In this document: positions 8,085 to 27,901 of the stretch, in pieces
Layout: each line of letters starts with the position of its first letter
Position numbering within the stretch: the stretch's first letter is position 1
IMG/VR virus record: IMGVR_UViG_3300028777_000007
Location: 1-41,233 of that record
Strand: one strand, 5' to 3'
Length of the DNA stretch: 41,233 bases
Source: a virus
Taxonomy: Duplodnaviria; Caudoviricetes
Program-made: the position numbers and the translations under genes
Notes under the pieces: model-generated
Told to the model about the DNA's origin: nothing
What the model saw: only the letters and a program-made list of their open reading frames with translations
Database searches by the model: none

Positions 8085-8350
8085 GCGTGGTGGCACTAGT
8101 GATTTGAAACTTCACATTTTGTGCGTGGCGCCTGAGACCCGAGTGCTTGGCCCCCCACTTTTGGTTCATAGGGGGTGGGGGGTTGATTCTGAGCGCCGCG
8201 TGACCACCCTCTCAGCGGTCGTTACATTATAACGTATCGCCCCAGTGCTGAGCGCTGAGCACCAAGTAAGAGCGACCTTGCACTCTAGTGATGCATCTGT
8301 TCATGGCCGGTTATCGAGGAGGGTGCTTGGCTGTAGATGCGTATAGGGCG

Positions 8351-8440
8351 CGCTAGGCGCTAGGCGCTAGGGTTGCCTAGGTGCTTGGCATTGCGTGGCG
8401 TGGCGCTAGGCTCTAGGGGCGTGGAGGCTGGGTGCTAGGT
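8351..8440. repeat. CTAGG / GCGCTAG short-repeat array
   Basis: CTAGG at 8353, 8360, 8367, 8377, 8406, 8413 and 8435. Confidence 0.8.
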
Positions 8441-8834
8441 TCGGTGGGCGTGGCGCGTGGCGCGTTGGGCCCCGCGCCGGGGTGTACCCTAATTGGTGTA
8501 CCCTACAGCCCAGCAAAGTATTATGGCTGGCGCGTAGTGCTACACTACTGGTTATACATACAGTACTATTTTTTACATTATAACTTACTACAAACAAGGG
8601 TACACAAAGGTACACAACACCACGAGCCTTGCGCCACGGCACCTACGCGCTGTACCCCCCATCGGCCCTGCACGGTACACAGTACCCAGCCCCCGGTACA
8701 CCATCATGGGCCCAGCCTATTGGGCCCAACACGACCATAGCAAAAGCCCCGCCACTGTACCGTGGCGCCACGCGCCGGGTACAGTAAAAAAGGTACACCA
8801 CGGTACTGGGCGCCCAGTGCTTAATCCAACACAA

Positions 8835-8858
8835 CAAAAAGCCCCAATAAAGGGGCTT
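8835..8858 (-). terminator. intrinsic terminator after the 9020-9484 gene
   Basis: Minus strand AAGCCCC-tttatt-GGGGCTT followed by TTTG. Confidence 0.7.
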
Positions 8859-9019
8859 GGTGCGACGCGCTGGGCGTCTAGTGTTTATGTCTTGGCCGTT
8901 GCATGTATCCGCGTAGTGCTAGGAACGCAGCCCATAGCACGATGGTGTAGATAGCGACGGCGCCCATTAATTTGCACATTTCACACATCCTTGGGGCCCG
9001 GAGGCCCCGTGCGTAGTGG

Positions 9020-9484
9020 TTAGGCTTGAGCAATGTAGCCGCTAGTGGTGAAAGCCTTCCAATAAGACCGTGGTGTGCCGCTGCCGAGTTTGGCTTTAAT
9101 CTGCGCCAGTGCGGCGAGCGCTTCGCCTTCGGTAAACGTATCGCCAAGTGCTTGCAACTGGGCCAGTGCTACAAGGCGCGTATTAGTAGCTGGGGCGGCC
9201 ACACTGCGCCAAGCCATACCCATACCTGTTTTGGCCCCTGCTTGCATGGTGGCGCGGTCCTGGGCGGCCTTACCGGCCAATTTAAAGGCTGGCACTACAT
9301 GCACATAGGCAGTTGTTTCGCCGCTGCCAAAATCCATGGTGTCCGGGTCGGCCAGCGCGGCGGCAATAATGGCGTTGCTTGGTGCGTGGTCCACAACAAC
9401 CGGGCCGTTAATGCTGCCATCGGCAAATACTGGGCCGATAAATGCGGCAACTTTAGGGGCGCGTGGTGAAGATGCAGTTTTCAT
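9020..9484 (-). CDS. hypothetical protein, stand-alone (pre-)early gene
   Basis: 154-aa ORF with RBS (caggt), its own promoter and terminator. Confidence 0.7.
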   Translation of the reverse strand: MKTASSPRAPKVAAFIGPVFADGSINGPVVVDHAPSNAIIAAALADPDTMDFGSGETTAYVHVVPAFKLAGKAAQDRATMQAGAKTGMGMAWRSVAAPATNTRLVALAQLQALGDTFTEGEALAALAQIKAKLGSGTPRSYWKAFTTSGYIAQA

Positions 9485-9534
9485 GGCGGTGTACCTGTAT
9501 TAGCGGCTAGGCGGTATTGCCTTGGCCTGAGTAA

Positions 9535-9562
9535 ACAATAGCACAGCGGTTGCACCGTGCAA
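9535..9562 (-). promoter_or_regulatory. sigma70-like promoter
   Basis: TTGCAC-16nt-TATTGT with an AT-rich UP-like tract at 9566-9593. Confidence 0.6.
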
Positions 9563-9602
9563 GTCATTTTTTAAACTATTTGCAAATTAATTTGCGCCGA
9601 GT

Positions 9603-9618
9603 TGGCACGGTCCTTGCT
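9603..9618 (+). promoter_or_regulatory. sigma54 (RpoN) -24/-12 consensus site
   Basis: TGGCACG-GTCC-TTGCT. Confidence 0.6.
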
Positions 9619-9820
9619 ACGCGTCTGCGCGCATAATAAAGGGCAGTCGTGTCCTAGCGCTTAGCAATTAGCGTGCCGAGTTCTATCTTGGTGCAGAGTG
9701 CTGAGACCAAAGAAAAGACACATCTCCATTCTCATGCAGATGTGTCCGGGGGTCGCGATCGCAGTTAGGAGACTTTCCCCACCAAGGTTCGTTTCCAGGG
9801 GGTGGGGCTTGGGGGAGAAC

Positions 9821-10060
9821 CTAAGCGCGCTGAATGTACCCCAAGTCGTAGAGCTGATAATAGGCGTAGTGCGCCTGTTGCTCAGTGCAGAGAAGCTGAG
9901 TTTTGATCCAATGAATCGCTGCTGCACGCATGAACGGTTTGGGATACGGAAACTGATCTACCATCACCTCGTATGCCCTGACGTAGCGCGGGCGTCCTGA
10001 TTTAGAGGGCCCAGCATAGACCAGTGGGATGTCGTTGAGTTGCATCGGTACGTTAGCCAT
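9821..10060 (-). CDS. hypothetical protein, 79 aa (start refined)
   Basis: MANVPMQL...; TAATG coupling to the upstream ORF. Confidence 0.6.
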   Translation of the reverse strand: MANVPMQLNDIPLVYAGPSKSGRPRYVRAYEVMVDQFPYPKPFMRAAAIHWIKTQLLCTEQQAHYAYYQLYDLGYIQRA

Positions 10061-10218
10061 TATGTGTTCGCCGCCATCGTTTTGTACAGTTGTAGGAAGG
10101 CTTGGTGGGCATTGGTGCCGCGCCACACCACACTACGCGCTCCGGCGGCCTTGGGGCCCCGTATCAAGAGGTAGTGGTAGCCTGTCATGATGCAATCTAT
10201 GCGCTGAATGCTATACAT
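10060..10218 (-). CDS. hypothetical 52-aa protein (not in the ORF track)
   Basis: MYSIQRIDCIMTGYHYLLIRGP...; RBS ggag; overlaps both neighbours. Confidence 0.6.
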   Translation of the reverse strand: MYSIQRIDCIMTGYHYLLIRGPKAAGARSVVWRGTNAHQAFLQLYKTMAANT

Positions 10219-10309
10219 TATCTTCTCCGCGCTTAGAGGCAGAGATCGACACGCACCAATAGACAGTGGTGATAGCGCTAAGAACGACGTAGATGAGGAT
10301 GTAGATCAT
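10211..10309 (-). CDS. 32-aa single-pass membrane microprotein
   Basis: MIYILIYVVLSAITTVYWCVSISASKRGEDNV, first ORF after the promoter at 10343-10371. Confidence 0.55.
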   Translation of the reverse strand: MIYILIYVVLSAITTVYWCVSISASKRGEDNV

Positions 10310-10342
10310 GACGGGGCCTGCGTTGTTGGTGGGTACAGTGCA

Positions 10343-10371
10343 ACTATAGCCCCTATAGTTGCACCGTGCAA
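10343..10371 (-). promoter_or_regulatory. sigma70-like promoter embedded in a 12-bp inverted repeat
   Basis: TTGCAC-17nt-TATAGT-TGCAC; inverted repeat GTGCAACTATAG-ccc-CTATAGTTGCAC at 10338-10364. Confidence 0.75.
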
Positions 10372-10385
10372 ATATTATTTTATCA

Positions 10386-12554
10386 CTAGAAGCGTGCCAC
10401 CATCGCTTCACAGAACGCGACCCAGTCCTCAATGGACACAACACCCTTCTTGAGAGCGTCAACGCCCTGTATCCTAACTCGGGCTTGGCCGATGTCCTTG
10501 GCCCCGCACTCCTTGATCATAGCAATGAGATCGGCCTTTTCCTGTCTTGGCAACAATCTTCCATCACTAGGCATGAAGGTCTCTACGAGCAGCGACATTT
10601 GCATGCGCCAGTCACCGGTCTTGGCGCGGAATGCTTCCTCCCCCGTCTTCTTAAGCATCTGCCAGATGTCAGCCTTGGCCCAGAATTGTCCCATGCGGCC
10701 CACCACATTAGACTCGCTTATGTATTGCTCGGCGGTGGACTCTGAGTGCTCAGTAGCTGAGCGAGTGTCCCCTGCTCTGAAGAGTTGATACCCGTATCGC
10801 AGGAGGGTAGCGCCGCATTCTTTGATGACATCACGGTTGGAGGTGAGTCTTCCATAGTAGTGATGAACTCCAACAACTTCAAGCGTAATGAATCTACGCT
10901 CTCCGTCGCCTTTTGAAGATCTGATATAGCCTCTGTTAGTGTCGACAGTAGTGAGGAATATTGAGGAATGTCGTGTGCATTCACTCGCATATTCCTTATA
11001 GAGCTCTCGCACATCCGTAGATCGTGTCGTGCTAAGGGTAAAGATGTTCTGCTCAACCTGTTTAGCATTGCCGTCAGCGGGATTGTATTCATCGAAGACT
11101 CCTAATAGATTGTCTCGGCAAGCCTTATACAGCTCGCCGAGTTCGGATTTGGCCCCATCTTTGGCGAGCTTCCCTACTCTCGGTCGGTAGCCCCAGTCGC
11201 CCAGTGCGGCTATAAAGGAATGCGGAAAATTTGACTTCCCACAGCCAGACGGGCCGACAAGTGCGCAGGCCCATTGGACGTCAACATCAGGATCAAGCGA
11301 CCAAAGTGCAACGATATCCCGTGACATGCGTATAATCGTCTCAGCCGTTTGCTCTTGAGTGAGCGGACCGGTGACTTTAATGCCCTCAGTGATAAGTCTA
11401 TTTGCCGCAGCATATGCTTGGTCCTCGGTAACTGGCTCTTGGCGCTCCAATAGCTCCAGCGGTATGCTGGTCTTGCGAGTGCTGAGTAGGTAGTTCAGGG
11501 CATCCTTGGCGAAGGTGTTGCGCACGCTTTCTCCATTGCCACGGTAGGCGCTGGTCTCTAGCCAAGTACGGAAGTCCATAACCAACGAGTCGAAGTCCTT
11601 GGGCCCAGCGTCAATATTGCTCATATCGTAGATCTGGTTACTAATGTCCATGGCTAGTTGGGCCCACTTTGGATAGCGGGTCAATCGCATGTAATTATCC
11701 AGGGTATGGACGGCGCTGATGTTATGAAACTTATCTTCCTTGGTCTCTAACTGGTACTCAGCTATTAGGAAGCCAGGAGGTACGAAGTCAGTTATCTCAA
11801 CGCCGGTCTGCTGTCGTAGTATCTCCATTGCCCAGTTGGCAGCGATCTGCCCTTGGGGCTGCTCCATGCACCAGTCGTCCCAGCCTACACCGCGCTCGTT
11901 CTCTGGTACTTCTAGGAACACAACTTTGATATCGTCTCGAATGAGATTGATCCAGCCTTTAAGTCCTTTAGCTGCTTCTTGAATTCCGGGCTTGTAGGAG
12001 ATATCACCGTCAAAACAAACAAGAAGTTTTGCGCCAAGTGCCATGTTTTTGATGGTGTGTTCGAGTTGCTCACCCATCTTCCCATTCTTTGACCATCCGG
12101 CGCATCCGCTAATAGCCAGCCCCGGTATTTCCAGAAACTTCGTCGCCAGTTCCGCGCTCGTAATCTTCTCATGTAACATCACCACGTTAGCGTGACATAT
12201 AACATCTTTCGGCTTGGTGAAGTGTAGGAACTCGCCCTTGAACATCTGCAAGAACTTGGGGCGGTCGGCGTACACTTGGGCCAGTTTACCCCGCACAAAA
12301 TAAAGGGCCTGCTCGGGGTAGTTGCAGACCCGTAGATGTCGTTTGGTATCGTCTGGTAGGCCGTCCTCGCCCTTGACCATAAAGGCCCAGCCCTGCAATG
12401 GATAGTCAGTACCATCCTTGAGGCTGAGCCCGTGGTTCTTGGTGCAGAATGGAATGATGGGACAATCTTGTATGGTAAGGCACCGAGCTTCTAAATACTC
12501 AGCTGCCTCTTGTAAATAGGTACTTCCGGCATCTGTAAAAAATTTAGTTGCCAT
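10386..12554 (-). CDS. primase-helicase (Toprim/DUF3854-like N-terminus plus VirE/VapE-like P-loop ATPase)
   Basis: HEK..SA, VCFDGD and GWDDW Toprim-like motifs; GPSGCGKS Walker A, VFDE Walker B, GERRF arginine finger. Confidence 0.8.
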   Translation of the reverse strand: MATKFFTDAGSTYLQEAAEYLEARCLTIQDCPIIPFCTKNHGLSLKDGTDYPLQGWAFMVKGEDGLPDDTKRHLRVCNYPEQALYFVRGKLAQVYADRPKFLQMFKGEFLHFTKPKDVICHANVVMLHEKITSAELATKFLEIPGLAISGCAGWSKNGKMGEQLEHTIKNMALGAKLLVCFDGDISYKPGIQEAAKGLKGWINLIRDDIKVVFLEVPENERGVGWDDWCMEQPQGQIAANWAMEILRQQTGVEITDFVPPGFLIAEYQLETKEDKFHNISAVHTLDNYMRLTRYPKWAQLAMDISNQIYDMSNIDAGPKDFDSLVMDFRTWLETSAYRGNGESVRNTFAKDALNYLLSTRKTSIPLELLERQEPVTEDQAYAAANRLITEGIKVTGPLTQEQTAETIIRMSRDIVALWSLDPDVDVQWACALVGPSGCGKSNFPHSFIAALGDWGYRPRVGKLAKDGAKSELGELYKACRDNLLGVFDEYNPADGNAKQVEQNIFTLSTTRSTDVRELYKEYASECTRHSSIFLTTVDTNRGYIRSSKGDGERRFITLEVVGVHHYYGRLTSNRDVIKECGATLLRYGYQLFRAGDTRSATEHSESTAEQYISESNVVGRMGQFWAKADIWQMLKKTGEEAFRAKTGDWRMQMSLLVETFMPSDGRLLPRQEKADLIAMIKECGAKDIGQARVRIQGVDALKKGVVSIEDWVAFCEAMVARF

Positions 12555-12600
12555 TTATGGCTCCAGGGGGTATGCTTGTTGCTCGTTGCTGTACGCCTTC

Positions 12601-12634
12601 GCCCCACTAGTTCGCTCTAGTGGGGCTTTTTATT
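12601..12634 (+). terminator. terminator-like hairpin with the U-tract on the plus strand, antisense to local genes
   Basis: GCCCCACTAG-ttcgct-CTAGTGGGGC-TTTTTATT. Confidence 0.6.
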
Positions 12635-12650
12635 GCGTAACGGGGCGCCC

Positions 12651-12679
12651 AGTATGCGCTAACCAAGCGCCCAGTGCAA
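12651..12679 (-). promoter_or_regulatory. sigma70-like promoter for the primase
   Basis: TTGCAC-17nt-CATACT. Confidence 0.55.
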
Positions 12680-12772
12680 AGCGGTAGCCACTAAGCACAC
12701 AGCGGTCACGGAGAGGCTTAGGCTCAGTATTACGGCAAGGGCCCACACCAACCATTCATCCCCGCTGTTCAT
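12659..12772 (-). CDS. 37-aa membrane microprotein
   Basis: MNSGDEWLVWALAVILSLSLSVTAVCLVATALHWALG; RBS ggagg and ATGA overlap. Confidence 0.6.
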   Translation of the reverse strand: MNSGDEWLVWALAVILSLSLSVTAVCLVATALHWALG

Positions 12773-12846
12773 AGGTCCTCCCAGAACACTTCTATCAGCG
12801 CCAGTAGGAAGATGGACCCCAGTGCGATTGCGATAATATCAGCCAT
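12769..12846 (-). CDS. 25-aa membrane microprotein
   Basis: MADIIAIALGSIFLLALIEVFWEDL; RBS gaggg; overlaps both neighbours. Confidence 0.6.
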   Translation of the reverse strand: MADIIAIALGSIFLLALIEVFWEDL

Positions 12847-12961
12847 TGTTTTGACCCTCATGCAGCCCGCGTTGATAACCACGTTCTTCAACCTTGTTCA
12901 TCATATCAACAATGGCAAGGTCTAGGACGACGAACACAACCACACCGATAATCCACCACAT
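12839..12961 (-). CDS. 40-aa membrane microprotein
   Basis: MWWIIGVVVFVVLDLAIVDMMNKVEERGYQRGLHEGQNNG; RBS gaggag. Confidence 0.65.
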   Translation of the reverse strand: MWWIIGVVVFVVLDLAIVDMMNKVEERGYQRGLHEGQNNG

Positions 12962-12962
12962 T

Positions 12963-13520
12963 TTATTTCTCCTCGATGCCTAGCAGCCTTAGCAGTGTAG
13001 CACGCCCCGGACCTTCACTGGTAGCTGGCACCAACTTCAGCACCTTGGCGATGAACAACAACCGAGCTGCTACGGGCCGATACTTGTGGCGGGCTACGAA
13101 TCTATCGTATAACTCTTGAACAGTGAACTTACGAGATATATCGCCGTTGTGCGTCAGGTGAGTGGTAATGCGATAAGCTAATGCTATGTCGCTTAATTCC
13201 GGCGACGTGTCAGTACCGAACATCTCCACCAGATCCCAAAGGCCGCTAGAGCAGGGCCCAGCCTCCATAATCTGCCCGATAGTGATGTAATGCACCACTG
13301 GATCTGGCTTAGACTTGGCTTCACGGATGAACGCCTTATGCGTGATGATGAATCTACTCCAGTCCCTATCCCGTGCGAGAGATAAGTACCGAGCTTCAGG
13401 ATCCCCGTTGGTAAACAGGTATGCTTGATCCAGGTAGCACACCGCATACCACTCGCCCCGCAGATACCACCTCTGCCCGGGATTGACTTGCTTCCCTTCT
13501 ACGACCAGAGTATCACACAT
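12963..13520 (-). CDS. hypothetical protein, 185 aa (start refined)
   Basis: RBS gagga before ATG 13520; contains an IT...I..AGPC..G motif. Confidence 0.7.
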   Translation of the reverse strand: MCDTLVVEGKQVNPGQRWYLRGEWYAVCYLDQAYLFTNGDPEARYLSLARDRDWSRFIITHKAFIREAKSKPDPVVHYITIGQIMEAGPCSSGLWDLVEMFGTDTSPELSDIALAYRITTHLTHNGDISRKFTVQELYDRFVARHKYRPVAARLLFIAKVLKLVPATSEGPGRATLLRLLGIEEK

Positions 13521-13521
13521 T

Positions 13522-13644
13522 TTATAGATCCTCGAATTTAATGGGGCAGCACCAGCCATCAATGAACTGGTAGTATGGGTCAGTATGGCCTCTGTCTGTA
13601 TAATCCCACAGGACGAGGCCATTAATCCAGTAGCAGGAAATCAT
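13522..13644 (-). CDS. hypothetical 40-aa protein
   Basis: MISCYWINGLVLWDY...; ATGA overlap; fills the gap exactly. Confidence 0.5.
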   Translation of the reverse strand: MISCYWINGLVLWDYTDRGHTDPYYQFIDGWCCPIKFEDL

Positions 13645-13844
13645 TTCAACGCTTCTTCGATGAGAGCATCGACGTTATAAATCACCGCCTCTGGGTCCAG
13701 ATACACGCCGTTGCTTCGGGCCCCGGCTCTGATGATGGCCGCCATTTCGCAGCGTAGCTTGAAGAGTGTAGCTACTGATTCGTTACGGCAGTCGCTCATT
13801 CCATCTAATTGCCGCAGAGCCTCGAGCTTAATTTTGAGTTCCAT
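13641..13844 (-). CDS. hypothetical protein
   Basis: RBS aggag; part of the packed leftward operon. Confidence 0.65.
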   Translation of the reverse strand: MELKIKLEALRQLDGMSDCRNESVATLFKLRCEMAAIIRAGARSNGVYLDPEAVIYNVDALIEEALK

Positions 13845-13855
13845 GTGCTTAGCTC

Positions 13856-14218
13856 CTAGAATGGGATGTCGTCGTCGAAGATATCTTCATCACCAAGGAC
13901 CTGCTCCTTAGAGTGTTCTTCCTCGTCATGCCCGATGGCGAGCATGTTACGGATTTCCTCGTTAATTTTGTCCAGAGCGTGCTGAGCCTCGCCCGCCCTT
14001 TTATACAGGGCCCCCAACTTGATATTATGGTATTGGCCCTGTACGTCTTCAAGTGTCACAGGCCAAGTGACTTCTACCTCAGCAATGAATGGGTATTCTT
14101 TATTAGATTTTGAGTCCCGCATGCAGGGGTCGGTAAAGACAGTCCAGTCCTCACCCCAGCTTTGCAGTGACAGATGGAGGTAGAGCTTAGTGGGTAGAGG
14201 CTTGGTAAACTGTTTCAT
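13856..14218 (-). CDS. hypothetical protein with a bacterial SSB-like C-terminal tip (DDDIPF)
   Basis: Start refined to MKQFTKP; ends GDEDIFDDDIPF. Confidence 0.75.
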   Translation of the reverse strand: MKQFTKPLPTKLYLHLSLQSWGEDWTVFTDPCMRDSKSNKEYPFIAEVEVTWPVTLEDVQGQYHNIKLGALYKRAGEAQHALDKINEEIRNMLAIGHDEEEHSKEQVLGDEDIFDDDIPF

Positions 14219-14256
14219 TTGAGGCACCTTTGCTTGGTTTTGGTTAACGTGGTGCA

Positions 14257-14286
14257 ACTATAGCCCAGCCTATATAAGCAGTGCAA
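14257..14286 (-). promoter_or_regulatory. leftward sigma70-like promoter
   Basis: TTGCAC-18nt-TATAGT-TGCAC. Confidence 0.75.
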
Positions 14287-14318
14287 CCACTATTTTATAA
14301 TTTGATTAAATAAAGCAG

Positions 14319-14347
14319 TTGCACTACTATATAGGCTGGGCTATAGT
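14319..14347 (+). promoter_or_regulatory. rightward sigma70-like promoter
   Basis: TTGCAC-17nt-TATAGT-TGCAC. Confidence 0.8.
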
Positions 14348-14389
14348 TGCACCGTACCAACCAAAACCACTCCAGCAAGGGGCTACAAA

Positions 14390-14581
14390 ATGTCTAAGAC
14401 ACGTGTTAATCGCAAAGTGCCGAGCGTTGAGATCCTGTTCCTGCGCCACTCCAAGGCTAATATAGCCGTGCCGAGCGCTAAGCAGTACGTCCGTGATTTC
14501 AGCAAGCTGGAGTTGAGCCGAGCGCTCAGCACTGAGCACGTCGTGGCACAACTGGCGCGCCGCCAAAGGAACGTAAAATGA
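14390..14581 (+). CDS. hypothetical basic early protein
   Basis: First ORF after the promoter; RBS aagggg. Confidence 0.65.
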   Translation: MSKTRVNRKVPSVEILFLRHSKANIAVPSAKQYVRDFSKLELSRALSTEHVVAQLARRQRNVK

Positions 14582-14697
14582 CACCGCATGACCGCTGGCT
14601 TGAAGAGGGCATGGATGGGGCCGAGGAGGAAGATCCTAAAGCCCCGGTTGATGATGACCCAGCCGAGCCCAACGATTACCCCGAGGAAGATCAATGA
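14578..14697 (+). CDS. 39-aa highly acidic microprotein (not in the ORF track)
   Basis: MTPHDRWLEEGMDGAEEEDPKAPVDDDPAEPNDYPEEDQ; ATGA overlaps at both ends. Confidence 0.65.
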   Translation: MTPHDRWLEEGMDGAEEEDPKAPVDDDPAEPNDYPEEDQ

Positions 14698-14876
14698 AAG
14701 CGTTCAGAGTTATGGTCAACGACCTGCAAAACGGCACGGCTGTCTGGCAAGACAAGCTGACCGAGCGCCAAGCGCGGAACGAAGCCAAGGCCCAGCGTAA
14801 AGCTCAGCCGAAGCGTAACTTCTTTGTTTCTGAGTACGAAGAGGCCCGCGAAGGGGCCAACAAGTTGGAGGCGTAA
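14694..14876 (+). CDS. hypothetical protein
   Basis: RBS gagga; ATGA overlap. Confidence 0.7.
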   Translation: MKAFRVMVNDLQNGTAVWQDKLTERQARNEAKAQRKAQPKRNFFVSEYEEAREGANKLEA

Positions 14877-14877
14877 C

Positions 14878-15069
14878 ATGGCAATGATATCTGCTCGCAC
14901 CATGCAAATCCTCGATTGGCTGATCAAGGAAGCTGCAACGAAACTCGGCACTATGGAAATTGACAGCGGTGAGCGTAAAGAGTTTGCCAGCCGCCTGCGT
15001 GGGGCCCGTGATGCACTGGCTGAAATCCGCACCGTGCGCAAAGAACTCTGTCAGGAGGATCAAGCATGA
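14878..15069 (+). CDS. hypothetical protein (start refined)
   Basis: RBS ggagg before ATG 14878. Confidence 0.65.
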   Translation: MAMISARTMQILDWLIKEAATKLGTMEIDSGERKEFASRLRGARDALAEIRTVRKELCQEDQA

Positions 15070-16224: not shown

Positions 16225-16427
16225 TGAAATCATTTGCTGACTGGACGCAGGAGTTAGCAGAGTCTCAGAACCACGAGCCAGAACCTAAGAGGCCCGTATA
16301 CGCAGAGTTCGCTGAGGAGTTAGATGAAGTTCAGTGCTCGTGCGGGGCAGAGTATGGGCCCCCTAACGCCGACGATGGGCGCCGCTACTGCAATCGGTAC
16401 AATGCAGGGAACCACTGCGCGCCCTAG
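16224..16427 (+). CDS. hypothetical Cys-containing protein
   Basis: CSCG...C...C; RBS aggag. Confidence 0.6.
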   Translation: MKSFADWTQELAESQNHEPEPKRPVYAEFAEELDEVQCSCGAEYGPPNADDGRRYCNRYNAGNHCAP

Positions 16428-16456
16428 TTGCACCCCGGCCACAAGCCTGCTATAGT
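16428..16456 (+). promoter_or_regulatory. sigma70-like promoter
   Basis: TTGCAC-17nt-TATAGT-TGCAC. Confidence 0.8.
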
Positions 16457-16485
16457 TGCACTGTAATTAACCAAGGGCTAGTATC

Positions 16486-17906: not shown

Positions 17907-17908
17907 TT

Positions 17909-18244
17909 ATGCGTATGGATGAACTGACAGCTAAAGTCCTGGGGTGGGCCAATGATCGGAACCTTATCATTGGATCTACGGTCGACAAGCAGTTTGTTAA
18001 ACTCGTTGAAGAGGTCGGGGAACTGGCGGCCGGTTTGGCGCGAGGAAAGAGTGAGGTTATTGATGATGCGCTCGGTGACATCATGGTCATCGCCATCATC
18101 ATGTGCGCCCAGCGTGGCAGTACCCCAGCAAACATTCTTGAAGATGTATGGAATATCATCAAGGAACGTAAAGGTAAGATGGTTGACGGCGTCTTCATTA
18201 AAGAAAACGACGCCATGATGGCGACTGGGAGTAATGGGCAGTGA
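17909..18244 (+). CDS. MazG-like all-alpha NTP pyrophosphohydrolase
   Basis: WA.DRNL...KQ..KL.EEVGELA....DALGD.......IK.RKGKM.DG.FIK. Confidence 0.88.
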   Translation: MRMDELTAKVLGWANDRNLIIGSTVDKQFVKLVEEVGELAAGLARGKSEVIDDALGDIMVIAIIMCAQRGSTPANILEDVWNIIKERKGKMVDGVFIKENDAMMATGSNGQ

Positions 18245-18351
18245 CCACGTTCCAAAAACTCGGCCTCTGGTTCGTTGTGGGCCCCCGCTTCAGCGCAAGT
18301 GGGCCCAATCTAGAGACCGTGCTGGCGTTTTACCACCGACACGCTTAGCAG

Positions 18352-18380
18352 TTGCACCATTGTATGCACTGCGCTATAAT
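18352..18380 (+). promoter_or_regulatory. sigma70-like promoter of the replication operon
   Basis: TTGCAC-17nt-TATAAT. Confidence 0.8.
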
Positions 18381-18416
18381 AACAGCGTACCAACTAACAG
18401 CAACGAGGATATAACC

Positions 18417-18764
18417 GTGACTGAACAAACAGAAAACCTGACACTGGAAGGCTGGGCTGCTGCTCAATACGAGCCCTACGAGTTCCCGCAAGAAAAGCTC
18501 CTGGAGTTGCAAGCGCTGTTCGTGCCAGTGGGTGAGTTCTTGGTCGCTAACAAGATCCCCTTCGGCTTCTTGGTGCAGAGCGCGCTGAACCGCGATGGTG
18601 GTGTAGCCATCAACGGCTCTACCTTCATGGGCCCCATTGGCCGCACTGGCGTTGATATGCTCAACTTAGCTATGATCAGCGGCCAAGATCTAAGCGCCGA
18701 GGAAGTGTTCATCATGCTGGCGCAGGCGTTCCAGGCTAAGGCCGAGAACCAAATCGTTATCTAA
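18417..18764 (+). CDS. hypothetical protein (GTG start refined)
   Basis: RBS gagga before GTG 18417; the longer ORF start would run through the promoter. Confidence 0.7.
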   Translation: MTEQTENLTLEGWAAAQYEPYEFPQEKLLELQALFVPVGEFLVANKIPFGFLVQSALNRDGGVAINGSTFMGPIGRTGVDMLNLAMISGQDLSAEEVFIMLAQAFQAKAENQIVI

Positions 18765-18781
18765 TTACTGAGTACTGAGAA

Positions 18782-19528
18782 ATGAGTGATAGCACAGAGA
18801 TTGTAGACTACGAGAAGTTGCTCCAAGGCATGGCGAAAACAGCCGCTGCCACCGAGCGTCCAAGCTCCTCAACACTGGGTTGCAAGGCCGGTATCCTCAC
18901 CATGAACGGCGAGGCTATCAAAGGCAATAAGATCGATATGATCGTCATTGCCAGCACCTACTCCAACCTGTATTACGAGGAGAAGTGGGACCCAGACAAC
19001 CCCACCAACCCTGTCTGCTTTGCCTACTCCCCTGACGGTGAGAACATGGCCCCACACCCGGCTAGCTCCAAGCCTCAGTGCGAGACCTGCGACAAGTGCT
19101 GGGCCAACCAATGGAAGTCTGATCCAGAAGGTGGCAAAGGCAAGGCGTGCAAGAATGGTCGTAAATTGGCCGGTATCCCAGCCGATGTACAGGCTGACGA
19201 AATCGACAAGGCTGAAGTCGCCATCCAAAGTCTTCCAGTCACTTCCATCAAGTTCTGGGGCAACTATGTCAACCTGATCGCGTTGAAGTATGGGCGCCCG
19301 CCGCTTGGCATGGTCACTACGGTGGGGGCCGTACCTGACATGAAGCACCAGTTCCACATCACGTTTGAGCCAGTGCGCCCGGTTGATGTCTCTTACATCA
19401 AGGCGCTCATGGATAAGGGGGCGCTCTGCAAGGACTTGATGGAGAAGGTATACGATCCTAATCCAGAAGTTAGTCCAGAGGAGGCGGAAGCTCGGGTTAA
19501 GGCCGCTGGGAAGAAGTCCAAGTTCTAA
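18782..19528 (+). CDS. putative ssDNA-binding/annealing protein with a Cys cluster
   Basis: YY...DP.....P.C.......P....C..C..N...S...GKGKACK..R pattern directly upstream of PolA; the function is inferred. Confidence 0.55.
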   Translation: MSDSTEIVDYEKLLQGMAKTAAATERPSSSTLGCKAGILTMNGEAIKGNKIDMIVIASTYSNLYYEEKWDPDNPTNPVCFAYSPDGENMAPHPASSKPQCETCDKCWANQWKSDPEGGKGKACKNGRKLAGIPADVQADEIDKAEVAIQSLPVTSIKFWGNYVNLIALKYGRPPLGMVTTVGAVPDMKHQFHITFEPVRPVDVSYIKALMDKGALCKDLMEKVYDPNPEVSPEEAEARVKAAGKKSKF

Positions 19529-19572
19529 GCTCCAGGGGGCCGTAGTGGCCCCCACTTCATTCAGGTGATAAA

Positions 19573-21354
19573 ATGTACGATGGAATTGTGCTCGACTTTG
19601 AGTCGGAGAAGATTGAGAACGGGGCGCCACTGTTACCGATCCCGGTAGGTTGCGCTATCATCGACCCAGATAAATACCCCGAGGGGCATTACTTCTCTTG
19701 GGGCCATCCTGAGGGCAATAACTGCACCAAGGAGGATTTCCGTGAATACCTCGCATCCATCTGGCACCGCCGGATACTCACACAAAACGGCTGCACTTTT
19801 GATATTCCTCTCGCTGCTCACCATTTCAACCTTCCTGAGCGGGATCCTCTGCTCACAGACGACACTCTGTTCGCCAGTTATCTCCATAACCCACACGCAC
19901 GCTCCCTTTCGTTGAAGGATCTGGCTGAGGATTGGCTAGGGATCCCGCCAGATGAACAACAAGATATGTACGATTGGCTCGTTGCAAATGTCGGCTGCAC
20001 TCGTAAAGAGGCCGGTGCCTACATCTCCAAGGCTCCGGTTAGATTTGTGGGCCCATATGCTGTCGGCGACTGTACAAGGACGCTGGCTCTATGGAACCAC
20101 GTTGAGCCCCTCATTGCGGATATGGTCGAACCCTATCAACGGGAAGTCAAACTTGGCCCCATACTTTCCGAAATACGGAACCTTGGAGTGCGGTGCGACG
20201 TTCGTAGACTCGCGACGGACTACCTTGTTGCCATGCGCAAACTGGGTGAACTGGATTCCCTCATTAGGAACCGGCTCTCTGCTCCCACACTTAACGTCAG
20301 TAGTGACGCCGAGCTTGGTGCGGCGTTGGTTGCAAACGGGTTCACGGGATTCCTGAAGACAGCCAAGTCTGGTAAGGACTCCATGTCCAAGCTGAGCCTG
20401 GAGACTGTACTGGCTGGCGACCCAGACCTCCAGCTTATGATTCGCTCTAGAGCCACCTACGCCACGTTTGCCGGCACTTTTATGTGGCCGTGGCTGCAAT
20501 ACGCCAAGGCCAACGGCGGGCGCATACACGCGGCCTATAACCAAGTGCGCAACCCCGAGGGCTACGGTACACGCACTGGGCGCCTGTCCAGCACTGGGCC
20601 CAACTTCCAAAACGTACCAACGGTAGTTGACTTCCTTGACTACTTCGGTGAACCATTCCCAGTGATGCGCTCGTACCTACTGCCAGAAGAGGGGCATGAG
20701 TGGACGACCGGTGACTTTAAGAACCAAGAGCCACGCCTCGCCGCGCATTTTGAAGATGGCAAGTTCATGGCGGCGTTTAACTCCAATCCTGACTTGGACC
20801 CATACATCTTCTTGTGTGACGTGGCTGGCATGCCGCACTCGGAACGGAAGAAGGCCAAGGGTATCTACTTGGGCCTTTTATACGCGATGGGCATCGCCAT
20901 GCTGGCTGACAAGCTGGACATCAGCGAGCAAGAGGCTACTATCTTGCGTAACTGTATCAAGGCTTCCATCCCCGACATCGTAGCGCTGGATAATCAGTGC
21001 AAGAAGCGCTTCAAGTCAGGGCTACCCATCGTAACACTTGGGGGCCGCTTCTACTTCTGCGAGCCACCTACTGGGGCCCGACGCTGGGATTACAAGGCGC
21101 TGAACACTCTGATCCAAGGTAGCGCAGCCGATGAGACCAAAGAGGCTCTTGTGTACGCCCATGCGCAGCTACGTCTCCGCTGTCCAGGCGCTCGGTTACT
21201 CGGCACGGTGCATGATGAATACAGCGTGTCGCACTTGCCCTCTCAGCGCGAAGAAGTGTACAAGATCATCAACGAGTCAGCCAATGCCCTTCCATGCGAC
21301 GTTCCTATGCTCATGGAAATCGCCACTGGGGCCAACTGGTCGGAGGCGAAATGA
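19573..21354 (+). CDS. DNA polymerase family A with 3'-5' exonuclease
   Basis: LDFES ExoI, TRTGRLSS..PNFQN, DFKNQEPR (motif A), R..AK....LLY (motif B), VHDE (motif C). Confidence 0.95.
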   Translation: MYDGIVLDFESEKIENGAPLLPIPVGCAIIDPDKYPEGHYFSWGHPEGNNCTKEDFREYLASIWHRRILTQNGCTFDIPLAAHHFNLPERDPLLTDDTLFASYLHNPHARSLSLKDLAEDWLGIPPDEQQDMYDWLVANVGCTRKEAGAYISKAPVRFVGPYAVGDCTRTLALWNHVEPLIADMVEPYQREVKLGPILSEIRNLGVRCDVRRLATDYLVAMRKLGELDSLIRNRLSAPTLNVSSDAELGAALVANGFTGFLKTAKSGKDSMSKLSLETVLAGDPDLQLMIRSRATYATFAGTFMWPWLQYAKANGGRIHAAYNQVRNPEGYGTRTGRLSSTGPNFQNVPTVVDFLDYFGEPFPVMRSYLLPEEGHEWTTGDFKNQEPRLAAHFEDGKFMAAFNSNPDLDPYIFLCDVAGMPHSERKKAKGIYLGLLYAMGIAMLADKLDISEQEATILRNCIKASIPDIVALDNQCKKRFKSGLPIVTLGGRFYFCEPPTGARRWDYKALNTLIQGSAADETKEALVYAHAQLRLRCPGARLLGTVHDEYSVSHLPSQREEVYKIINESANALPCDVPMLMEIATGANWSEAK

Positions 21355-22013
21355 GCATCTACAACAAAGCACTATCACCATCGGGCTTAAAGCTGTTCAA
21401 GGAGTGCCCGTTCAAGTGGGCTGACCGCTACGTCGCTGGGAACTACCCCCCAGCGCGGGCAGCTAGCGACCGAGGCACTGAGTTGCACTTGGAGCTTGAA
21501 CTGTTCTTCACTGGGGCCCAGCCATACCCAGCGGCGAACAAGACTCTACGTCCTTGGCAGCGCTTTATGGAAGGGCTGAGCATTAAGCCCCACACCGCTG
21601 AGGGCGAAGTGGCAGTACTAAGCGATTGGTCCCAAACCACGTTCAACGATCCAAACGCCAACTACCGGGGGAAATATGATCTTAAGCTGGACGGGAACCC
21701 TAAAGTGCTCGACATCTTCGACTGGAAGTCTGGCAAGATATACCCTGACCATGAGTTCCAGGGTCTTTCATACTGCGCGATGGAGCCGGGTAGATATCTA
21801 GTCTACCGCACGCACTTCGTATACCTAGACATCCCTACCCACGTTGAGACACGGGATTACCTTGCTCCAAAAATTGTGGTCGAAAGAATTAAGCTGACGG
21901 AAGAGATTGACTTCTTACGCAACTCTATGGTCTACCCACCTAAGCCTGGATCTGGCTGCTATTACTGCCATCTAAGCTGGAGGAAAGGAGGAACTTGCCG
22001 TGCTGCTAGATAA
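21351..22013 (+). CDS. PD-(D/E)XK / Cas4-like exonuclease (start refined)
   Basis: LSPS.LK.F..CP, RGT.LH, GKYD...IFDWKSGK, and C-terminal C..C....C. Confidence 0.85.
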   Translation: MSIYNKALSPSGLKLFKECPFKWADRYVAGNYPPARAASDRGTELHLELELFFTGAQPYPAANKTLRPWQRFMEGLSIKPHTAEGEVAVLSDWSQTTFNDPNANYRGKYDLKLDGNPKVLDIFDWKSGKIYPDHEFQGLSYCAMEPGRYLVYRTHFVYLDIPTHVETRDYLAPKIVVERIKLTEEIDFLRNSMVYPPKPGSGCYYCHLSWRKGGTCRAAR

Positions 22014-22182
22014 ACAATACCCCGGATGGTGGGCCCCGAACAAGAAGGCTCACTACTTTGTAGATAGCGAATCGTTGTGCGGAAAGTGGGCCCACACTGG
22101 CATGACCATGACTTGGTCTGCCAGCGGGAAGTATTGCAAGCAGTGCTGCAAGACTGGGAGTAAGATGTATGGAACGCGCTGA
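22000..22182 (+). CDS. small zinc-finger-like protein
   Basis: HYF....SLCGKW...CKQC; RBS aaggagg. Confidence 0.65.
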   Translation: MLLDKQYPGWWAPNKKAHYFVDSESLCGKWAHTGMTMTWSASGKYCKQCCKTGSKMYGTR

Positions 22183-22753
22183 GTCTAAGATCGAAGTTGG
22201 GGTCAAGGAAGACCTCAAGAAATGGTGCCGAGAGAATGGCATTTGGCACGAGTTTCTTAAATTAAACGTGCTAGGCTTTAGGGGCTGGCCCGACCGTCTG
22301 CTGCTATGGGAGGGAGGTAACTGCCTATTCATAGAGTATAAAACGCTGACTGGGGCCCCAGAGCCGCTTCAGCCCTATATTCACAAAGTCATTAAGAAGC
22401 TAGGCTTCCGAGTTGAGGTACACAATGACCGCACCAAATCTTTGGAGTCGATCAAGGCAAAAATTCTTGCCACGGCCAGAACAGATCCGTGGTATGAAGC
22501 TAATAGTGCAGAACAAAGGATCTCGACTATTTCTGCCGCCCGGGAAAGGAAAGACTGCGACTGTCTTGAAGGCATTTTCCGTGTTGAAGAAGATGGGGCT
22601 CATAGATGTACTTCTTGTCATCGCACCGTTACGAGTGATCGCAACATCCTGGCCCTCCCAACTGGAACGATGGGAAGATTTCGAACATCTTTCATACGTG
22701 ACTATACATGGCGGGAAGACGGCGCGCTTGGAGGCGATGGACACGGCGGCTGA
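22169..22753 (+). CDS. VRR-NUC nuclease
   Basis: ES.IE...G.PDRL.......FIE.K......Q..........GF.V.V; its C-terminal half overlaps the helicase gene. Confidence 0.8.
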   Translation: MERAESKIEVGVKEDLKKWCRENGIWHEFLKLNVLGFRGWPDRLLLWEGGNCLFIEYKTLTGAPEPLQPYIHKVIKKLGFRVEVHNDRTKSLESIKAKILATARTDPWYEANSAEQRISTISAARERKDCDCLEGIFRVEEDGAHRCTSCHRTVTSDRNILALPTGTMGRFRTSFIRDYTWREDGALGGDGHGG

Positions 22754-23909
22754 TGTCTACTTGATGAACGTTGAGGGCCTACTGTCAAGCGAGTGGAAGC
22801 TGAGCAAGGTGCGTGGTTGCTACGTCATGAACGACGAAGCACTACGCTGGCTGAAAGACAAGCGAGTGATGGTGGCTATTGACGAATCCACCAAGTTCAA
22901 GAACCCCCAGTCGGCGCGCTTCAACACCATCAAGCGGTATCTACCATTTATTCACCGTAGTGTGATTATGACCGGCACCCCTAAGCCGAACAAGTTGGAG
23001 GACATCTTTGCGCAGTGCTTCCTGACGGACTTGGGTGAGGATTTGGGGGCCTACATCACGCACTTCCGCAACGAGTTCATGTATAAGGGATTCGACGACA
23101 AGATCTACCCGTTGCCTGGAGCCTTGGAGAAGATAGCCGAGATCATCGCACCAACCACTCTGCAACTGGAGGACGATGAGTCTATCCCTATGCAGATAGT
23201 TGATCTCTGGGTTAAGATGCCCCCAGAGGCTCAGGCTATTTACGATGAGCTAGCCGCTCAGTTCATGGTTATGATCGAGGGCGAGACAATATTGGCCCCA
23301 ACCTCGGCGGCATTGCTTGGCAAGCTGCGGCAAATTGCGCAGGGGGCCATCTATTATGAGCCTGATATGTTTGCCAAGGACGTACCAGTGTCTATTGACC
23401 ACTTCGGGCATGAAGTACGCCCGTATGTGAAGGCCCATGACCTGAAACTGGACGTATTGGAGAACTTACTGGAGGAATTAAACGGTGATCCTCTCTTCTT
23501 GCTATACGCCTTTAAGCACGACGTCGCCCGTATTGCTGAGCGCTTGGGGCATAGTATCCCGTGGATCGGCTCGGGTGTCAGTAAGGACCAAGGCTCGGCG
23601 TGGTGTCAGTCCTTCGGCGCTGGCGGTATGCCCCTTCTGGCAGGACATCCCCAATCAGTGGCTCATGGAGTCGACGGTCTGCAGGACAACTGCCGAAACA
23701 TTTGCTGGTTCGGCATGGATTGGTCATGGGAAAACTATTACCAAGCTAATAAGAGGATTGCCCGTGATGGTACGAAGGCTGAATCTGTCATGGTCTACCG
23801 CATACTCGTTGACTGCCCGACAGAGCATGCAATGCTGGAAGCTGTTGAGAGCAAGCGTAGCAGCGAGGCGCAATTTTTAGCATATTTGCGTAAATATTTG
23901 CTTGCATAG
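22425..23909 (+). CDS. SNF2-family helicase
   Basis: PRPEQ Q-motif, PGKGKT, IDEST, MTGTP, HGVDGLQ, YYQA..RIAR.G; RBS gagg before ATG 22425. Confidence 0.9.
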   Translation: MTAPNLWSRSRQKFLPRPEQIRGMKLIVQNKGSRLFLPPGKGKTATVLKAFSVLKKMGLIDVLLVIAPLRVIATSWPSQLERWEDFEHLSYVTIHGGKTARLEAMDTAADVYLMNVEGLLSSEWKLSKVRGCYVMNDEALRWLKDKRVMVAIDESTKFKNPQSARFNTIKRYLPFIHRSVIMTGTPKPNKLEDIFAQCFLTDLGEDLGAYITHFRNEFMYKGFDDKIYPLPGALEKIAEIIAPTTLQLEDDESIPMQIVDLWVKMPPEAQAIYDELAAQFMVMIEGETILAPTSAALLGKLRQIAQGAIYYEPDMFAKDVPVSIDHFGHEVRPYVKAHDLKLDVLENLLEELNGDPLFLLYAFKHDVARIAERLGHSIPWIGSGVSKDQGSAWCQSFGAGGMPLLAGHPQSVAHGVDGLQDNCRNICWFGMDWSWENYYQANKRIARDGTKAESVMVYRILVDCPTEHAMLEAVESKRSSEAQFLAYLRKYLLA

Positions 23910-23930
23910 GATGGTCCACGGTGCTATAGT
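23902..23930 (+). promoter_or_regulatory. sigma70-like promoter
   Basis: TTGCAT-17nt-TATAGT-TGCAC. Confidence 0.75.
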
Positions 23931-23990
23931 TGCACCGTAGCCAATAAATACAGAGCTACTCCTTATTCTAAAACACGTTGGAGATTCAAA

Positions 23991-24629
23991 ATGACTGATG
24001 GTGCCGTTGAACCTACCGTAGAAGAACTCCTGGCCGCTGCTGCTGTCGCCACTGAAGCCAACGCTGCCCCCAAGGCCAAGAAACCCCGCACTCCGAAACT
24101 GGATGCTGAAGGCAACGCGGTCGTCAAGCCGCCTCGGGCCCCCAAATTGTACGCTCAAGTGAACGCCGATGGCACCCCGATCCTGGACGAAGCTGGCAAT
24201 CCAGTGATGGGCGAAGGCAAGCCGACCAAGGCTCCGAAAGAAGCCAAGCTGTACCCGCAGGCTGCTGAAGACGGCACTCCTGCGCTGTTTGACACTGGCG
24301 AGCCGGTTATGGGCCCGTATCTCACTCGCTACAAAGAGCCGAAAGCCGCCAAGGCCCCGCGCCTGGACGCTGATGGCAACCCAATCGTGCGTCAATCCAA
24401 TGTCTTCCCCCTCGACGCGAAGTTGTTCAAGGTTGAGGGCAAGGGCACCGGCTACCGTGAAGGCAGCAAGCGCAAACAGAACTTCGACCTCATCCCGGCC
24501 GAGGGTATCACTGTCGGCGACTACTACGCCGCTGGCGGTGGCAAGTCCGTAGTTCACACGTTTGCTGTTTGGTACGTGAACGAAGATGAGTCTGTTCGTA
24601 TCGAAGTTGGCGAGCCCGCTGCTGAGTAA
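23991..24629 (+). CDS. hypothetical protein with internal D.(D/E)G(N/T)P repeats
   Basis: RBS ggag; codon usage resembles highly expressed genes; has its own promoter and a 3' hairpin. Confidence 0.8.
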   Translation: MTDGAVEPTVEELLAAAAVATEANAAPKAKKPRTPKLDAEGNAVVKPPRAPKLYAQVNADGTPILDEAGNPVMGEGKPTKAPKEAKLYPQAAEDGTPALFDTGEPVMGPYLTRYKEPKAAKAPRLDADGNPIVRQSNVFPLDAKLFKVEGKGTGYREGSKRKQNFDLIPAEGITVGDYYAAGGGKSVVHTFAVWYVNEDESVRIEVGEPAAE

Positions 24630-24646
24630 GCCCTCCACCTGCACTG

Positions 24647-24674: not shown

Positions 24675-24696
24675 ACCCTTCGAGGACTGAAAAGAC

Positions 24697-26893: not shown

Positions 26894-26933
26894 CAAAAAG
26901 GTTAAAGACTCTAACGAGATGGGAGATGGTCTT

Positions 26934-27899: not shown

Positions 27900-27901
27900 T
27901 T

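What the first reader, a model, noticed from the sequence alone, without database searches (positions are those of the whole stretch)
8341..24000. GA/TC dinucleotides are purged from every promoter: possible footprint of a sequence-specific DNA hypermodification
Seen (hand counts of GA plus TC): 0 in 10311-10383 (73 bp), 0 in 12617-12706 (90 bp), 1 in 14222-14371 (150 bp), 0 in 16410-16484 (75 bp), 0 in 18339-18405 (67 bp), 2 in 23866-23953 and 2 in 61-169. About 1 per 8 bp is expected at uniform composition; for example 9721-9780 has 12 in 60 bp. Each clean window coincides with a promoter and often ends at the RBS or start codon. The -35 boxes are TTGCAC, TTGCAT or TTGTAT, never the GA-containing consensus TTGACA. 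Inference: the cluster at 24861-28712 installs a bulky adduct in the 5'-TC-3' (GA) context, and the phage, which has no RNA polymerase, keeps its promoters free of adduct so host sigma70 holoenzyme can use them. The genome would then reveal the target motif of an uncharacterised modification system.
Basis: partly seen in the sequence, partly recalled or inferred. Interest (0 to 1): 0.9.

Follow-up and report, generated by a model that had tools for sequence, protein, structure and literature searches.

The report
Phage promoters purged of modification target
This phage keeps the dinucleotide TC out of its promoters and out of one small gene beside the packaging genes, while relatives with another version of the same gene cluster avoid TG instead, so the genome likely reveals where a predicted sugar is added to thymine and where that sugar would block the host's RNA polymerase.

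Summary
The depletion is real: all hand counts reproduce, and 12 GA/TC-free runs of 75 bp or more occur against 0.4 expected, reached by 0 of 400 protein-preserving shuffles. It is wider than claimed: it also covers a 1.3-kb zone beside the terminase gene, a small gene within it, and some coding stretches. The cluster encodes an Asn-type dUMP hydroxymethylase, an aGPT-PPlase1-type helical protein (HEL) and a GT-B glycosyltransferase, predicting glycosylated hydroxymethyluracil. The footprint swaps among relatives. In the window's HEL clade, promoter windows lose GA/TC (O/E 0.69, CA/TG 1.03; -35 TTGC/TTGT in 64 of 72). In a kinase clade they lose CA/TG (0.62, GA/TC 0.90; -35 TTTA/TAGA in 22 of 24), the context reported for M6 kinase. 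Clusterless BUCT555 keeps TTGAC in 9 of 9. Between two strains, 0 of 56 substitutions in clean zones give GA/TC. Against: no modification was measured, clusterless G003 is partly depleted, and characterised phages (M6, ViI, CAjan) show weak or no footprints. Verdict: likely a selection footprint of a TC-context thymine hypermodification; not found in print.

The parts
8337..9660 (.). GA/TC-poor zone between the terminase small-subunit candidate and the leftward early genes; includes the longest clean run 8442-8624
   Evidence: 47 GA/TC in 1324 bp against about 160 at the genome rate; lowest 400-bp window 5 against mean 48
9020..9484 (-). Small Ala/Thr/Gly-rich protein gene (154 aa) purged of GA/TC at synonymous sites; C-terminal part weakly winged-helix-like; function unknown
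   Evidence: 21 GA/TC against 46.4 under synonymous resampling, minimum 33 in 2000; homologs in G001, G006, G026, G028, G043; Atlas rows under the naming bar
9535..9562 (-). Promoter-like site TTGCAC-16-TATTGT ahead of the small gene
10311..10383 (-). Clean run with promoter-like TTGCAC-17-TATAGT (10371-10343)
12617..12706 (-). Clean run with promoter-like TTGCAC-17-CATACT (12679-12651) ahead of the primase-like gene; terminator-like hairpin at 12601-12626
   Evidence: boxes read by eye from the sequence (missed by scans requiring TA); hairpin
14222..14371 (.). Divergent promoter pair in inverted repeat: 14286-14257 (-) and 14319-14347 (+), both TTGCAC/TATAGT
16410..16484 (+). Clean run with TTGCAC-17-TATAGT (16428-16456)
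18339..18405 (+). Clean run with TTGCAC-17-TATAAT (18352-18380)
23866..23953 (+). TTGCAT-17-TATAGT (23902-23930) ahead of the 212-aa gene and the modification cluster
40225..40253 (-). TTGTAT-17-TATACT ahead of the major capsid gene (duplicated at 99-127)
20451..20557 (+). Clean run inside the DNA polymerase gene; similar intragenic runs at 4510-4591, 26289-26361, 31011-31101, 31428-31505, 33567-33647; role unexplained
   Evidence: five coding windows below P 0.002 given the protein sequence, against 0-1 for three control classes
24861..26108 (+). GT-B fold glycosyltransferase (415 aa)
   Evidence: AF2 pLDDT 93; Foldseek best hits all GT-B glycosyltransferases, E about 1e-13, T4 alpha-glucosyltransferase 1y6f at E 1.5e-10; weak PF13439
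26105..26893 (+). HEL: aGPT-PPlase1-type helical protein (PF18723), not the P-loop kinase
   Evidence: PF18723 E 5e-37; matches M6 ORF055 and PhiW-14 gp72; model resembles HhH glycosylases only below significance, E 0.11
26868..27899 (+). Thymidylate-synthase-family protein, predicted dUMP hydroxymethylase
   Evidence: 40% to YuA/M6 enzymes; Asn at the position where dCMP enzymes have Asp
27896..28414 (+). HD-domain nucleotidase (YfbR-like)
28365..28712 (+). Small conserved cluster gene, no family match
19573..21354 (+). Family A DNA polymerase; no RNA polymerase or sigma factor family among 55 proteins scanned

Best explanation
GA/TC is purged from this phage's promoter-like sites, from a 1.3-kb zone beside the terminase genes and from a small gene in that zone, likely because the phage puts a predicted sugar on hydroxymethyluracil at the T of 5'-TC-3' and host RNA polymerase would fail to initiate on DNA that carries it. 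Shown: the depletion; the three enzyme folds; no kinase or RNA polymerase gene found; the switch to TG avoidance in relatives with another HEL clade. Inferred: (1) the hydroxymethylase and HD nucleotidase supply hmdUTP, which the phage polymerase uses in place of dTTP; (2) after replication the GT-B enzyme glycosylates hmU at TC, about one site per 8 bp counting both strands, a base J-like mark that would block restriction; (3) HEL likely sets the context, either as the base-flipping partner of an exchangeable catalyst (GT-B, GT-A or kinase) or by returning hmU in other contexts to T; (4) selection removes TC wherever a host protein must read incoming modified DNA, so TTGACA becomes TTGCAC, and TTTACT or TAGACT where TG is the target; (5) the small purged gene is probably the first one read from virion DNA.
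For: Significance. Ongoing maintenance: 0 of 56 substitutions to a second strain give GA/TC in clean zones (11 expected), 116 of 628 elsewhere. Synonymous purge of the small gene in 6 of 6 genes tested. Promoter windows picked blind to the -35: HEL clade I, 54 loci, 157 sites, GA/TC 637/929, CA/TG 1142/1106, GA below CA in 32 of 34 loci; by partner GT-B 0.55, GT-A 0.71, kinase 0.78. Clade II (kinase), 33 loci, 79 sites, CA/TG 324/521, GA/TC 456/508. Clade III (60-kb GT-B phages) GA/TC 287/382. Clade IV (M6-like) CA/TG 225/286. An unrelated 62-65 kb family is enriched in GA/TC overall (rho 1.19-1.35) yet has 6-8 clean islands in each of 5 genomes. Mirror zones with 0, 1 and 4 CA/TG per 400 bp near terminase genes in 3 of 11 clade II genomes. 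BUCT555: TTGAC in 9 of 9. M6, whose kinase is reported to modify TG (PMC6449724, an unpublished remark), has TTTACT in 2 of 3 scored -35 boxes. Bulky or phosphorylated hmU cuts E. coli RNA polymerase output in vitro (PMC6457204); bulky major-groove groups probably act at initiation (PMC4838386 abstract).
Against: No modified base, context or transcript was measured. G003 has no cluster in a 39.9-kb contig yet shows rho 0.85, three synonymous islands and a TTGCAT box; it sits beside G005 in the polymerase tree, so recent loss is possible but unproven. Clusterless controls are thin: 27 sites in 10 genomes, only BUCT555 with many clear boxes. Characterised phages show little: M6 CA/TG 22/23 and no island, ViI 0.86, CAjan (known GA mark) 43/52 with one island, phiJL001 and LuckyBarnes no GA/TC island. 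G017 (clade I) has CA/TG 6/14 on two sites. The large clean zone is distinct in only 4 of 12 glycosyltransferase podoviruses. PMC6449724 infers TG or TC for M6, ViI and PhiW-14, and purified M6 kinase works without HEL (PMC8989533), so partners may carry their own specificity; partner trees fit the footprint about as well as HEL (4 against 2 and 2 against 2 changes). Loci are related, so Poisson P values overstate independence.
Confidence: 0.7

Rival explanations
1. The modification is at TC, but the clean DNA hides the first-entering part of the genome from a host defence that recognises the modified base, until the small gene's product inhibits it; promoter purging is a second, separate pressure.
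For: The largest clean zones cover whole small genes near terminase genes in two unrelated families, with Asp/Glu nearly lost (0-2 in 124-131 aa in four genes), more than initiation alone needs. PMC8989533 discussion expects modification-specific nucleases.
Against: Does not explain the -35 swap or clean promoters deep in the genome. Genome ends are unknown.
Confidence: 0.12
2. The depletion avoids a host-made lesion or cut (DarT-type thymidine ADP-ribosylation or restriction), unrelated to the phage cluster.
For: G003 is partly depleted without a cluster. Melted promoters expose single strands.
Against: All TC contexts are lost alike: TNTC (the DarT2 motif, recalled) is 11 of 47 remaining sites in the zone and 1018 of 4861 genome-wide; GATC O/E is 1.07. 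Genome-wide level is normal or raised. The avoided dinucleotide follows the phage's HEL clade.
Confidence: 0.06
3. Modified T at TC mutates faster, so unconstrained DNA loses TC without selection on promoters.
For: Many clean runs lie in non-coding or low-complexity stretches.
Against: Codon-junction T|C is 0.98 and G|A 0.90, like controls; some non-coding gaps are normal (24630-24860: 33 against 29.8); the 62-65 kb family is enriched overall; erosion would not fix one -35 variant.
Confidence: 0.05
4. TTGC and TTTA boxes reflect the host's sigma factor or a phage activator, and the pattern is lineage history.
For: Hosts are unknown; HEL clades partly follow genome lineage; a TATAGTTGCAC repeat suggests an operator.
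Against: G012/G013 share a capsid clade with TG-type G016/G021/G023 but carry clade I HEL and TTGC boxes; the footprint needs 7 changes on the HEL tree and 11 on the hydroxymethylase tree; it cannot explain purged coding sequence.
Confidence: 0.07

Closest known systems
5-hmdU-derived thymidine hypermodification of M6/YuA, ViI, PhiW-14, SP10, PaMx11 (PMC5889632, PMC8989533, PMC6449724)
   Same: dUMP hydroxymethylase and aGPT-PPlase1 homologs; post-replicative, context-dependent change of hmU.
   Different: No P-loop 5-HMUDK found in the window; a GT-B enzyme fills that slot; M6, PaMx11 and ViI lack clean islands.
Base J (glucosyl-hydroxymethyluracil) of kinetoplastids (PMC7055916 abstract)
   Same: Predicted sugar on hmU that affects transcription.
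   Different: hmU here would come from the nucleotide pool; the enzyme is GT-B whereas JGT resembles GT-A enzymes (bioRxiv 2023.12.21.572611); sugar and linkage unknown; here the mark is excluded from promoters.
Phage DNA glycosyltransferase clusters on 5hmC, and T4 alpha-glucosyltransferase (bioRxiv 2023.12.21.572611)
   Same: GT-B or GT-A next to a thymidylate-synthase homolog; that paper finds about 28% of GT-B pathways beside ThyS.
   Different: Asn-type enzyme points to hmU; HEL partner; no footprint described in the passages seen.
Oligosaccharide-thymidines of SP-15, YerA41, Carin-5 (PMC9023294, PMC12686479)
   Same: Sugar-bearing thymine in phage DNA.
   Different: Those use an alkyl linker; no dinucleotide context in the passages seen.
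preQ0 at GA in CAjan and iggy (PMC7544227, PMC10484667)
   Same: A dinucleotide-specific mark at the same base pairs, on the G.
   Different: No deazaguanine family among the 55 proteins scanned; CAjan's promoter depletion is weak (43/52).

Membership tests
5-hmdU thymidine hypermodification (M6/ViI type) | dUMP-specific hydroxymethylase | tested here: met
   40% to YuA/M6 enzymes; Asn at the specificity position, also in 117 of 121 cluster homologs; activity itself not assayed
5-hmdU thymidine hypermodification (M6/ViI type) | P-loop 5-hmdU DNA kinase | tested here: not met
   No PF18748 hit; kinase profile finds nothing in six frames
5-hmdU thymidine hypermodification (M6/ViI type) | aGPT-PPlase1 helical protein | tested here: met
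   PF18723 E 5e-37; M6 ORF055, PhiW-14 gp72
5-hmdU thymidine hypermodification (M6/ViI type) | Clade 2 amino acid:DNA transferase | tested here: not met
   No such Pfam match among 55 proteins
Base J-like glycosyl-hmU | Glycosyltransferase beside the hmU source | tested here: met
   GT-B model and Foldseek; gene order
Base J-like glycosyl-hmU | Glucosyl-hmU present in DNA | not testable with these tools
   Needs LC-MS of nucleosides
7-deazaguanine GA modification | DpdA and Que-pathway genes | tested here: not met
   No such family in Pfam or PHROGs scans
Sigma70 promoters | -35 and -10 boxes 16-18 bp apart ahead of genes | tested here: met
Sigma70 promoters | Transcript starts | not testable with these tools
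   No RNA data available
DarT target avoidance | Selective loss of TNTC (motif recalled) | tested here: not met
   11 of 47 against 1018 of 4861

The most novel reading that the evidence does not exclude
A widespread family of uncultured phages makes a base J-like glycosylated thymine whose dinucleotide target is chosen by the orphan aGPT-PPlase1 protein, with kinase, GT-A and GT-B as swappable catalysts; the target can be read from raw genome sequence because promoters and the first-expressed gene are recoded to exclude it, down to losing acidic residues or replacing ATG with ATT.
Probability: 0.4. Interest if true: 0.9.

Novelty: new variant of a known kind. Interest (0 to 1): 0.8.

Why it matters
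It offers a way to read the target context of a DNA hypermodification from sequence alone, for phages that nobody has cultured. It gives a testable role to aGPT-PPlase1, which is shared by all thymidine-hypermodifying phages examined in PMC5889632 yet was not needed for group transfer in lysates (PMC8989533). It addresses how a phage without its own RNA polymerase expresses densely modified DNA. It also points to a probable bacterial-virus counterpart of base J and to a context-specific DNA glycosylation enzyme pair.

Tried and rejected
TC-dense tracts beside the clean zones looked designed, but no significant dense tract exists in the window and only 2 in 42 genomes. A 10-11 bp periodicity (gyrase-site idea): band power above all 200 shuffles for S in both families, with a peak at 10-10.5 bp only in the second, whose islands are homologous; lead only. 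Upstream windows of -110 to -15 were too diluted, and BUCT555 also scored 0.75. The stock promoter scan misses TTGCAC boxes. Trinucleotide refinement found no further avoided motif in islands and no spared TC context. No cultured phage matches either GT-B tested or the small protein of the second family. No HEL-glycosyltransferase fusion among 12 longer HEL proteins; fusions were to polymerase, primase, methylase and kinase, weak evidence either way. No solved relative of HEL. No RNA holder listed. No complex prediction or wide fold search result was obtained for HEL, so binding to the glycosyltransferase is untested. The scan's earlier findings held nothing. Iyer et al. 2013 was not held.
Full report
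Observation. GA/TC is at normal frequency genome-wide (rho 0.97) and in genes (O/E 1.01) but at 0.61 in non-coding DNA. Runs free of it are far too long: 28, 17 and 12 runs of at least 45, 60 and 75 bp, against 7.2, 1.4 and 0.4 in 400 shuffles that keep every protein; none of the 400 reached these values. Eight other dinucleotide classes are unremarkable and CG is mildly clumped. Seven sigma70-like sites ahead of genes carry 0-2 GA/TC in about 59 bp and have TTGCAC, TTGCAT or TTGTAT; four matches inside structural genes carry 4-7. The clean DNA is not only promoters. The zone 8337-9660 beside the terminase genes holds 47 sites where about 160 are expected. The gene 9020-9484 in it has 21 sites against 46 expected from its own protein. 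Five coding windows are clean beyond what their proteins require. A second strain (loci L328, L003) differs at 56 scored positions in clean zones and none gives GA/TC (11 expected), against 116 of 628 elsewhere. One run's contig covers 7900-9770 without a difference (it may be the same campaign).

The genome and cluster. This is a 40-kb podovirus-like phage with a family A polymerase and no RNA polymerase family among 55 proteins scanned; the sequencing runs that hold it are labelled peat metagenome. The cluster reads GT-B glycosyltransferase, PF18723 helical protein, here HEL (homolog of M6 ORF055 and PhiW-14 gp72), thymidylate-synthase homolog 40% identical to the YuA/M6 enzyme with Asn at the position that established knowledge ties to dUMP, HD nucleotidase and a small gene. 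No P-loop kinase was found. So the modifiable base is most likely T, and in a GA/TC pair that is the T of TC.

Relatives. Of 20 capsid relatives at least 90% complete, 14 have the hydroxymethylase. The slot ahead of HEL holds GT-B, a GT-A (TAGT family) or a P-loop kinase. GA/TC islands number 12 in the window, 3-6 in G001, G005, G006, G026, G028, 0-1 in G027, G004, G025, and 0-1 in ten genomes or fragments without the cluster. BUCT555 has TTGAC in 9 of 9 strict sites, the window in 0 of 10. With windows anchored only on non-coding -10 boxes, 24 glycosyltransferase genomes have a median GA/TC O/E of 0.75 and 10 kinase or clusterless genomes 0.98 (Mann-Whitney P 2.7e-4; genomes with under three sites dropped). 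An unrelated 62-65 kb family with HEL, GT-B and hydroxymethylase is enriched in GA/TC yet has 6-8 clean islands in each of five genomes; three other 61-65 kb GT-B genomes have 0-1. Their largest island covers a small basic gene near the terminase genes with almost no Asp or Glu.

The swap. Kinase-type relatives G009, G016, G021, G023 lose CA/TG, not GA/TC, and use TTTACT or TAGAC boxes. I added 67 new dereplicated loci out of 101 of at least 10 kb and built a HEL tree of 120 sequences. By clade: I, with the window, GA/TC 0.69 and CA/TG 1.03, -35 TTGC 52, TTGT 12, TTTA 4, TTGG 2, TTGA 2, and depleted whether the partner is GT-B (0.55), GT-A (0.71) or kinase (0.78); II, kinase, CA/TG 0.62 and GA/TC 0.90, -35 TTTA 12, TAGA 10, TTGA 2; III, GA/TC 0.75; IV, M6-like and mostly GT-B, CA/TG 0.79 and GA/TC 0.93. 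Three of 11 clade II genomes have 400-bp zones with 0, 1 and 4 CA/TG near terminase genes; the other eight do not. For 72 labelled loci the footprint needs 7 changes on the HEL tree, 11 on the hydroxymethylase tree and 23 when shuffled; 46 of the 120 loci had no label. A careful tree of 31 hand-picked rows puts 20 TC-type rows with all three partners in one 99/97 clade. Partner trees fit about as well within each partner type, so HEL as selector is the simplest reading, not a proven one.

Mechanism. Most likely the phage replicates with hmdUTP and then glycosylates hmU at TC. Bulky or phosphorylated hmU cuts E. coli RNA polymerase output in vitro (PMC6457204, results section), and bulky major-groove groups probably act at initiation (PMC4838386, abstract). 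TTGACA contains both TG and GA, so a TC-modifying phage would shift to TTGC and a TG-modifying one to TTTA or TAGA, as seen. Ordinary genes keep normal TC density, so elongation seems to tolerate the mark. The purged small gene needs a further reason: it may be the first gene read from virion DNA, or lie at the end that meets modification-dependent defences. The intragenic islands remain unexplained.

Against. Nothing was measured at the bench. G003 lacks the cluster but is partly depleted. Clusterless controls offer few clear promoters. M6, PaMx11, ViI, CAjan and 9g have at most one GA/TC or CA/TG island; M6 shows only the TTTACT boxes; phiJL001 and LuckyBarnes have no GA/TC island, though LuckyBarnes has TTGC or TTGT in 4 of 4 strict sites. 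The big clean zone stands out in 4 of 12 glycosyltransferase podoviruses; controls reach 18-35 per 400 bp. DarT-type, restriction and mutational explanations fit worse.

Literature. Seen: passages of PMC6449724 (TG or TC contexts inferred; TG for M6 kinase is an unpublished remark), passages and sections 15 and 23 of PMC8989533, passages of PMC5889632, bioRxiv 2023.12.21.572611, PMC10484667, PMC12686479 and PMC9023294, the results section of PMC6457204, abstracts of PMC4838386 and PMC7055916, and a term search of PMC7544227 that found no 'promoter' or 'depleted'. Ten searches listed no paper on promoter avoidance of a hypermodification target, nor on aGPT-PPlase1 with a glycosyltransferase. 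The library lacks most subscription papers and Iyer et al. 2013, which may have predicted such clusters; no supplements were read.

Verdict. A real and selected pattern, likely the footprint of a TC-context thymine hypermodification (0.7). The chemistry is a new variant of a known kind; the readable, swappable footprint is the new part. Interest 0.8.

Noticed in passing
window 1-1067 and 40128-41233: The contig ends duplicate the capsid-promoter region and the holin gene, with two different HNH genes between them; looks like a two-strain assembly bubble or an HNH swap.
   Followed up: partly
L279:14431-15250 (G018) and L549 near 16701 (G050): CA/TG-free zones (3 in 820 bp in G018) hold 129- and 136-aa frames with one CA/TG each that appear to start at ATT behind a ribosome-binding motif; ATG, GTG and TTG all contain TG.
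   Followed up: partly
L362:1036-1410, L342:1979-2368, L336:19042-19437, L334:16338-16721: Small basic genes of 60-65 kb phages with 0, 3, 5 and 11 GA/TC and 0-2 Asp/Glu; no match in cultured phages for the one tested.
   Followed up: partly
L001:13954-15033 (BUCT555): In place of the cluster this relative has an annotated adenylosuccinate synthetase and an HD protein, suggesting a PurZ-type Z-DNA module (my inference); TA rho 0.54.
   Followed up: no
G003 (L262, L263): No cluster, but GA/TC depleted genome-wide (0.85); possible relic of recent loss or an unrecognised system.
   Followed up: partly
window, whole: CG-free runs are also in mild excess (124/53/22 against 101/35/12).
   Followed up: no
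window 8014-8090: Short tandem CTCTCAG-type repeats just ahead of the terminase small-subunit candidate and beside the clean zone.
   Followed up: partly
window 10336-10362: Perfect 12-bp inverted repeat with a 3-bp centre spanning the promoter; the TATAGTTGCAC motif recurs at most early promoters and may be an operator.
   Followed up: no
helicase genes of G001, G005, G006, G026, G007, L169, L330: A clean run recurs at the same place near the helicase gene's 3' end, 400-600 bp ahead of the cluster promoter.
   Followed up: no
P0125-P0133: HEL domains fused to family A polymerase, primase-helicase or adenine methylase, hinting that it travels with the replication machinery.
   Followed up: no
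L372 (RSL1 165261-171498): RSL1's HEL-hydroxymethylase cluster adds three glycosyltransferases, a sulfotransferase and APS kinase, suggesting a sulfated sugar; three GA/TC islands in 171 of 231 kb examined.
   Followed up: partly
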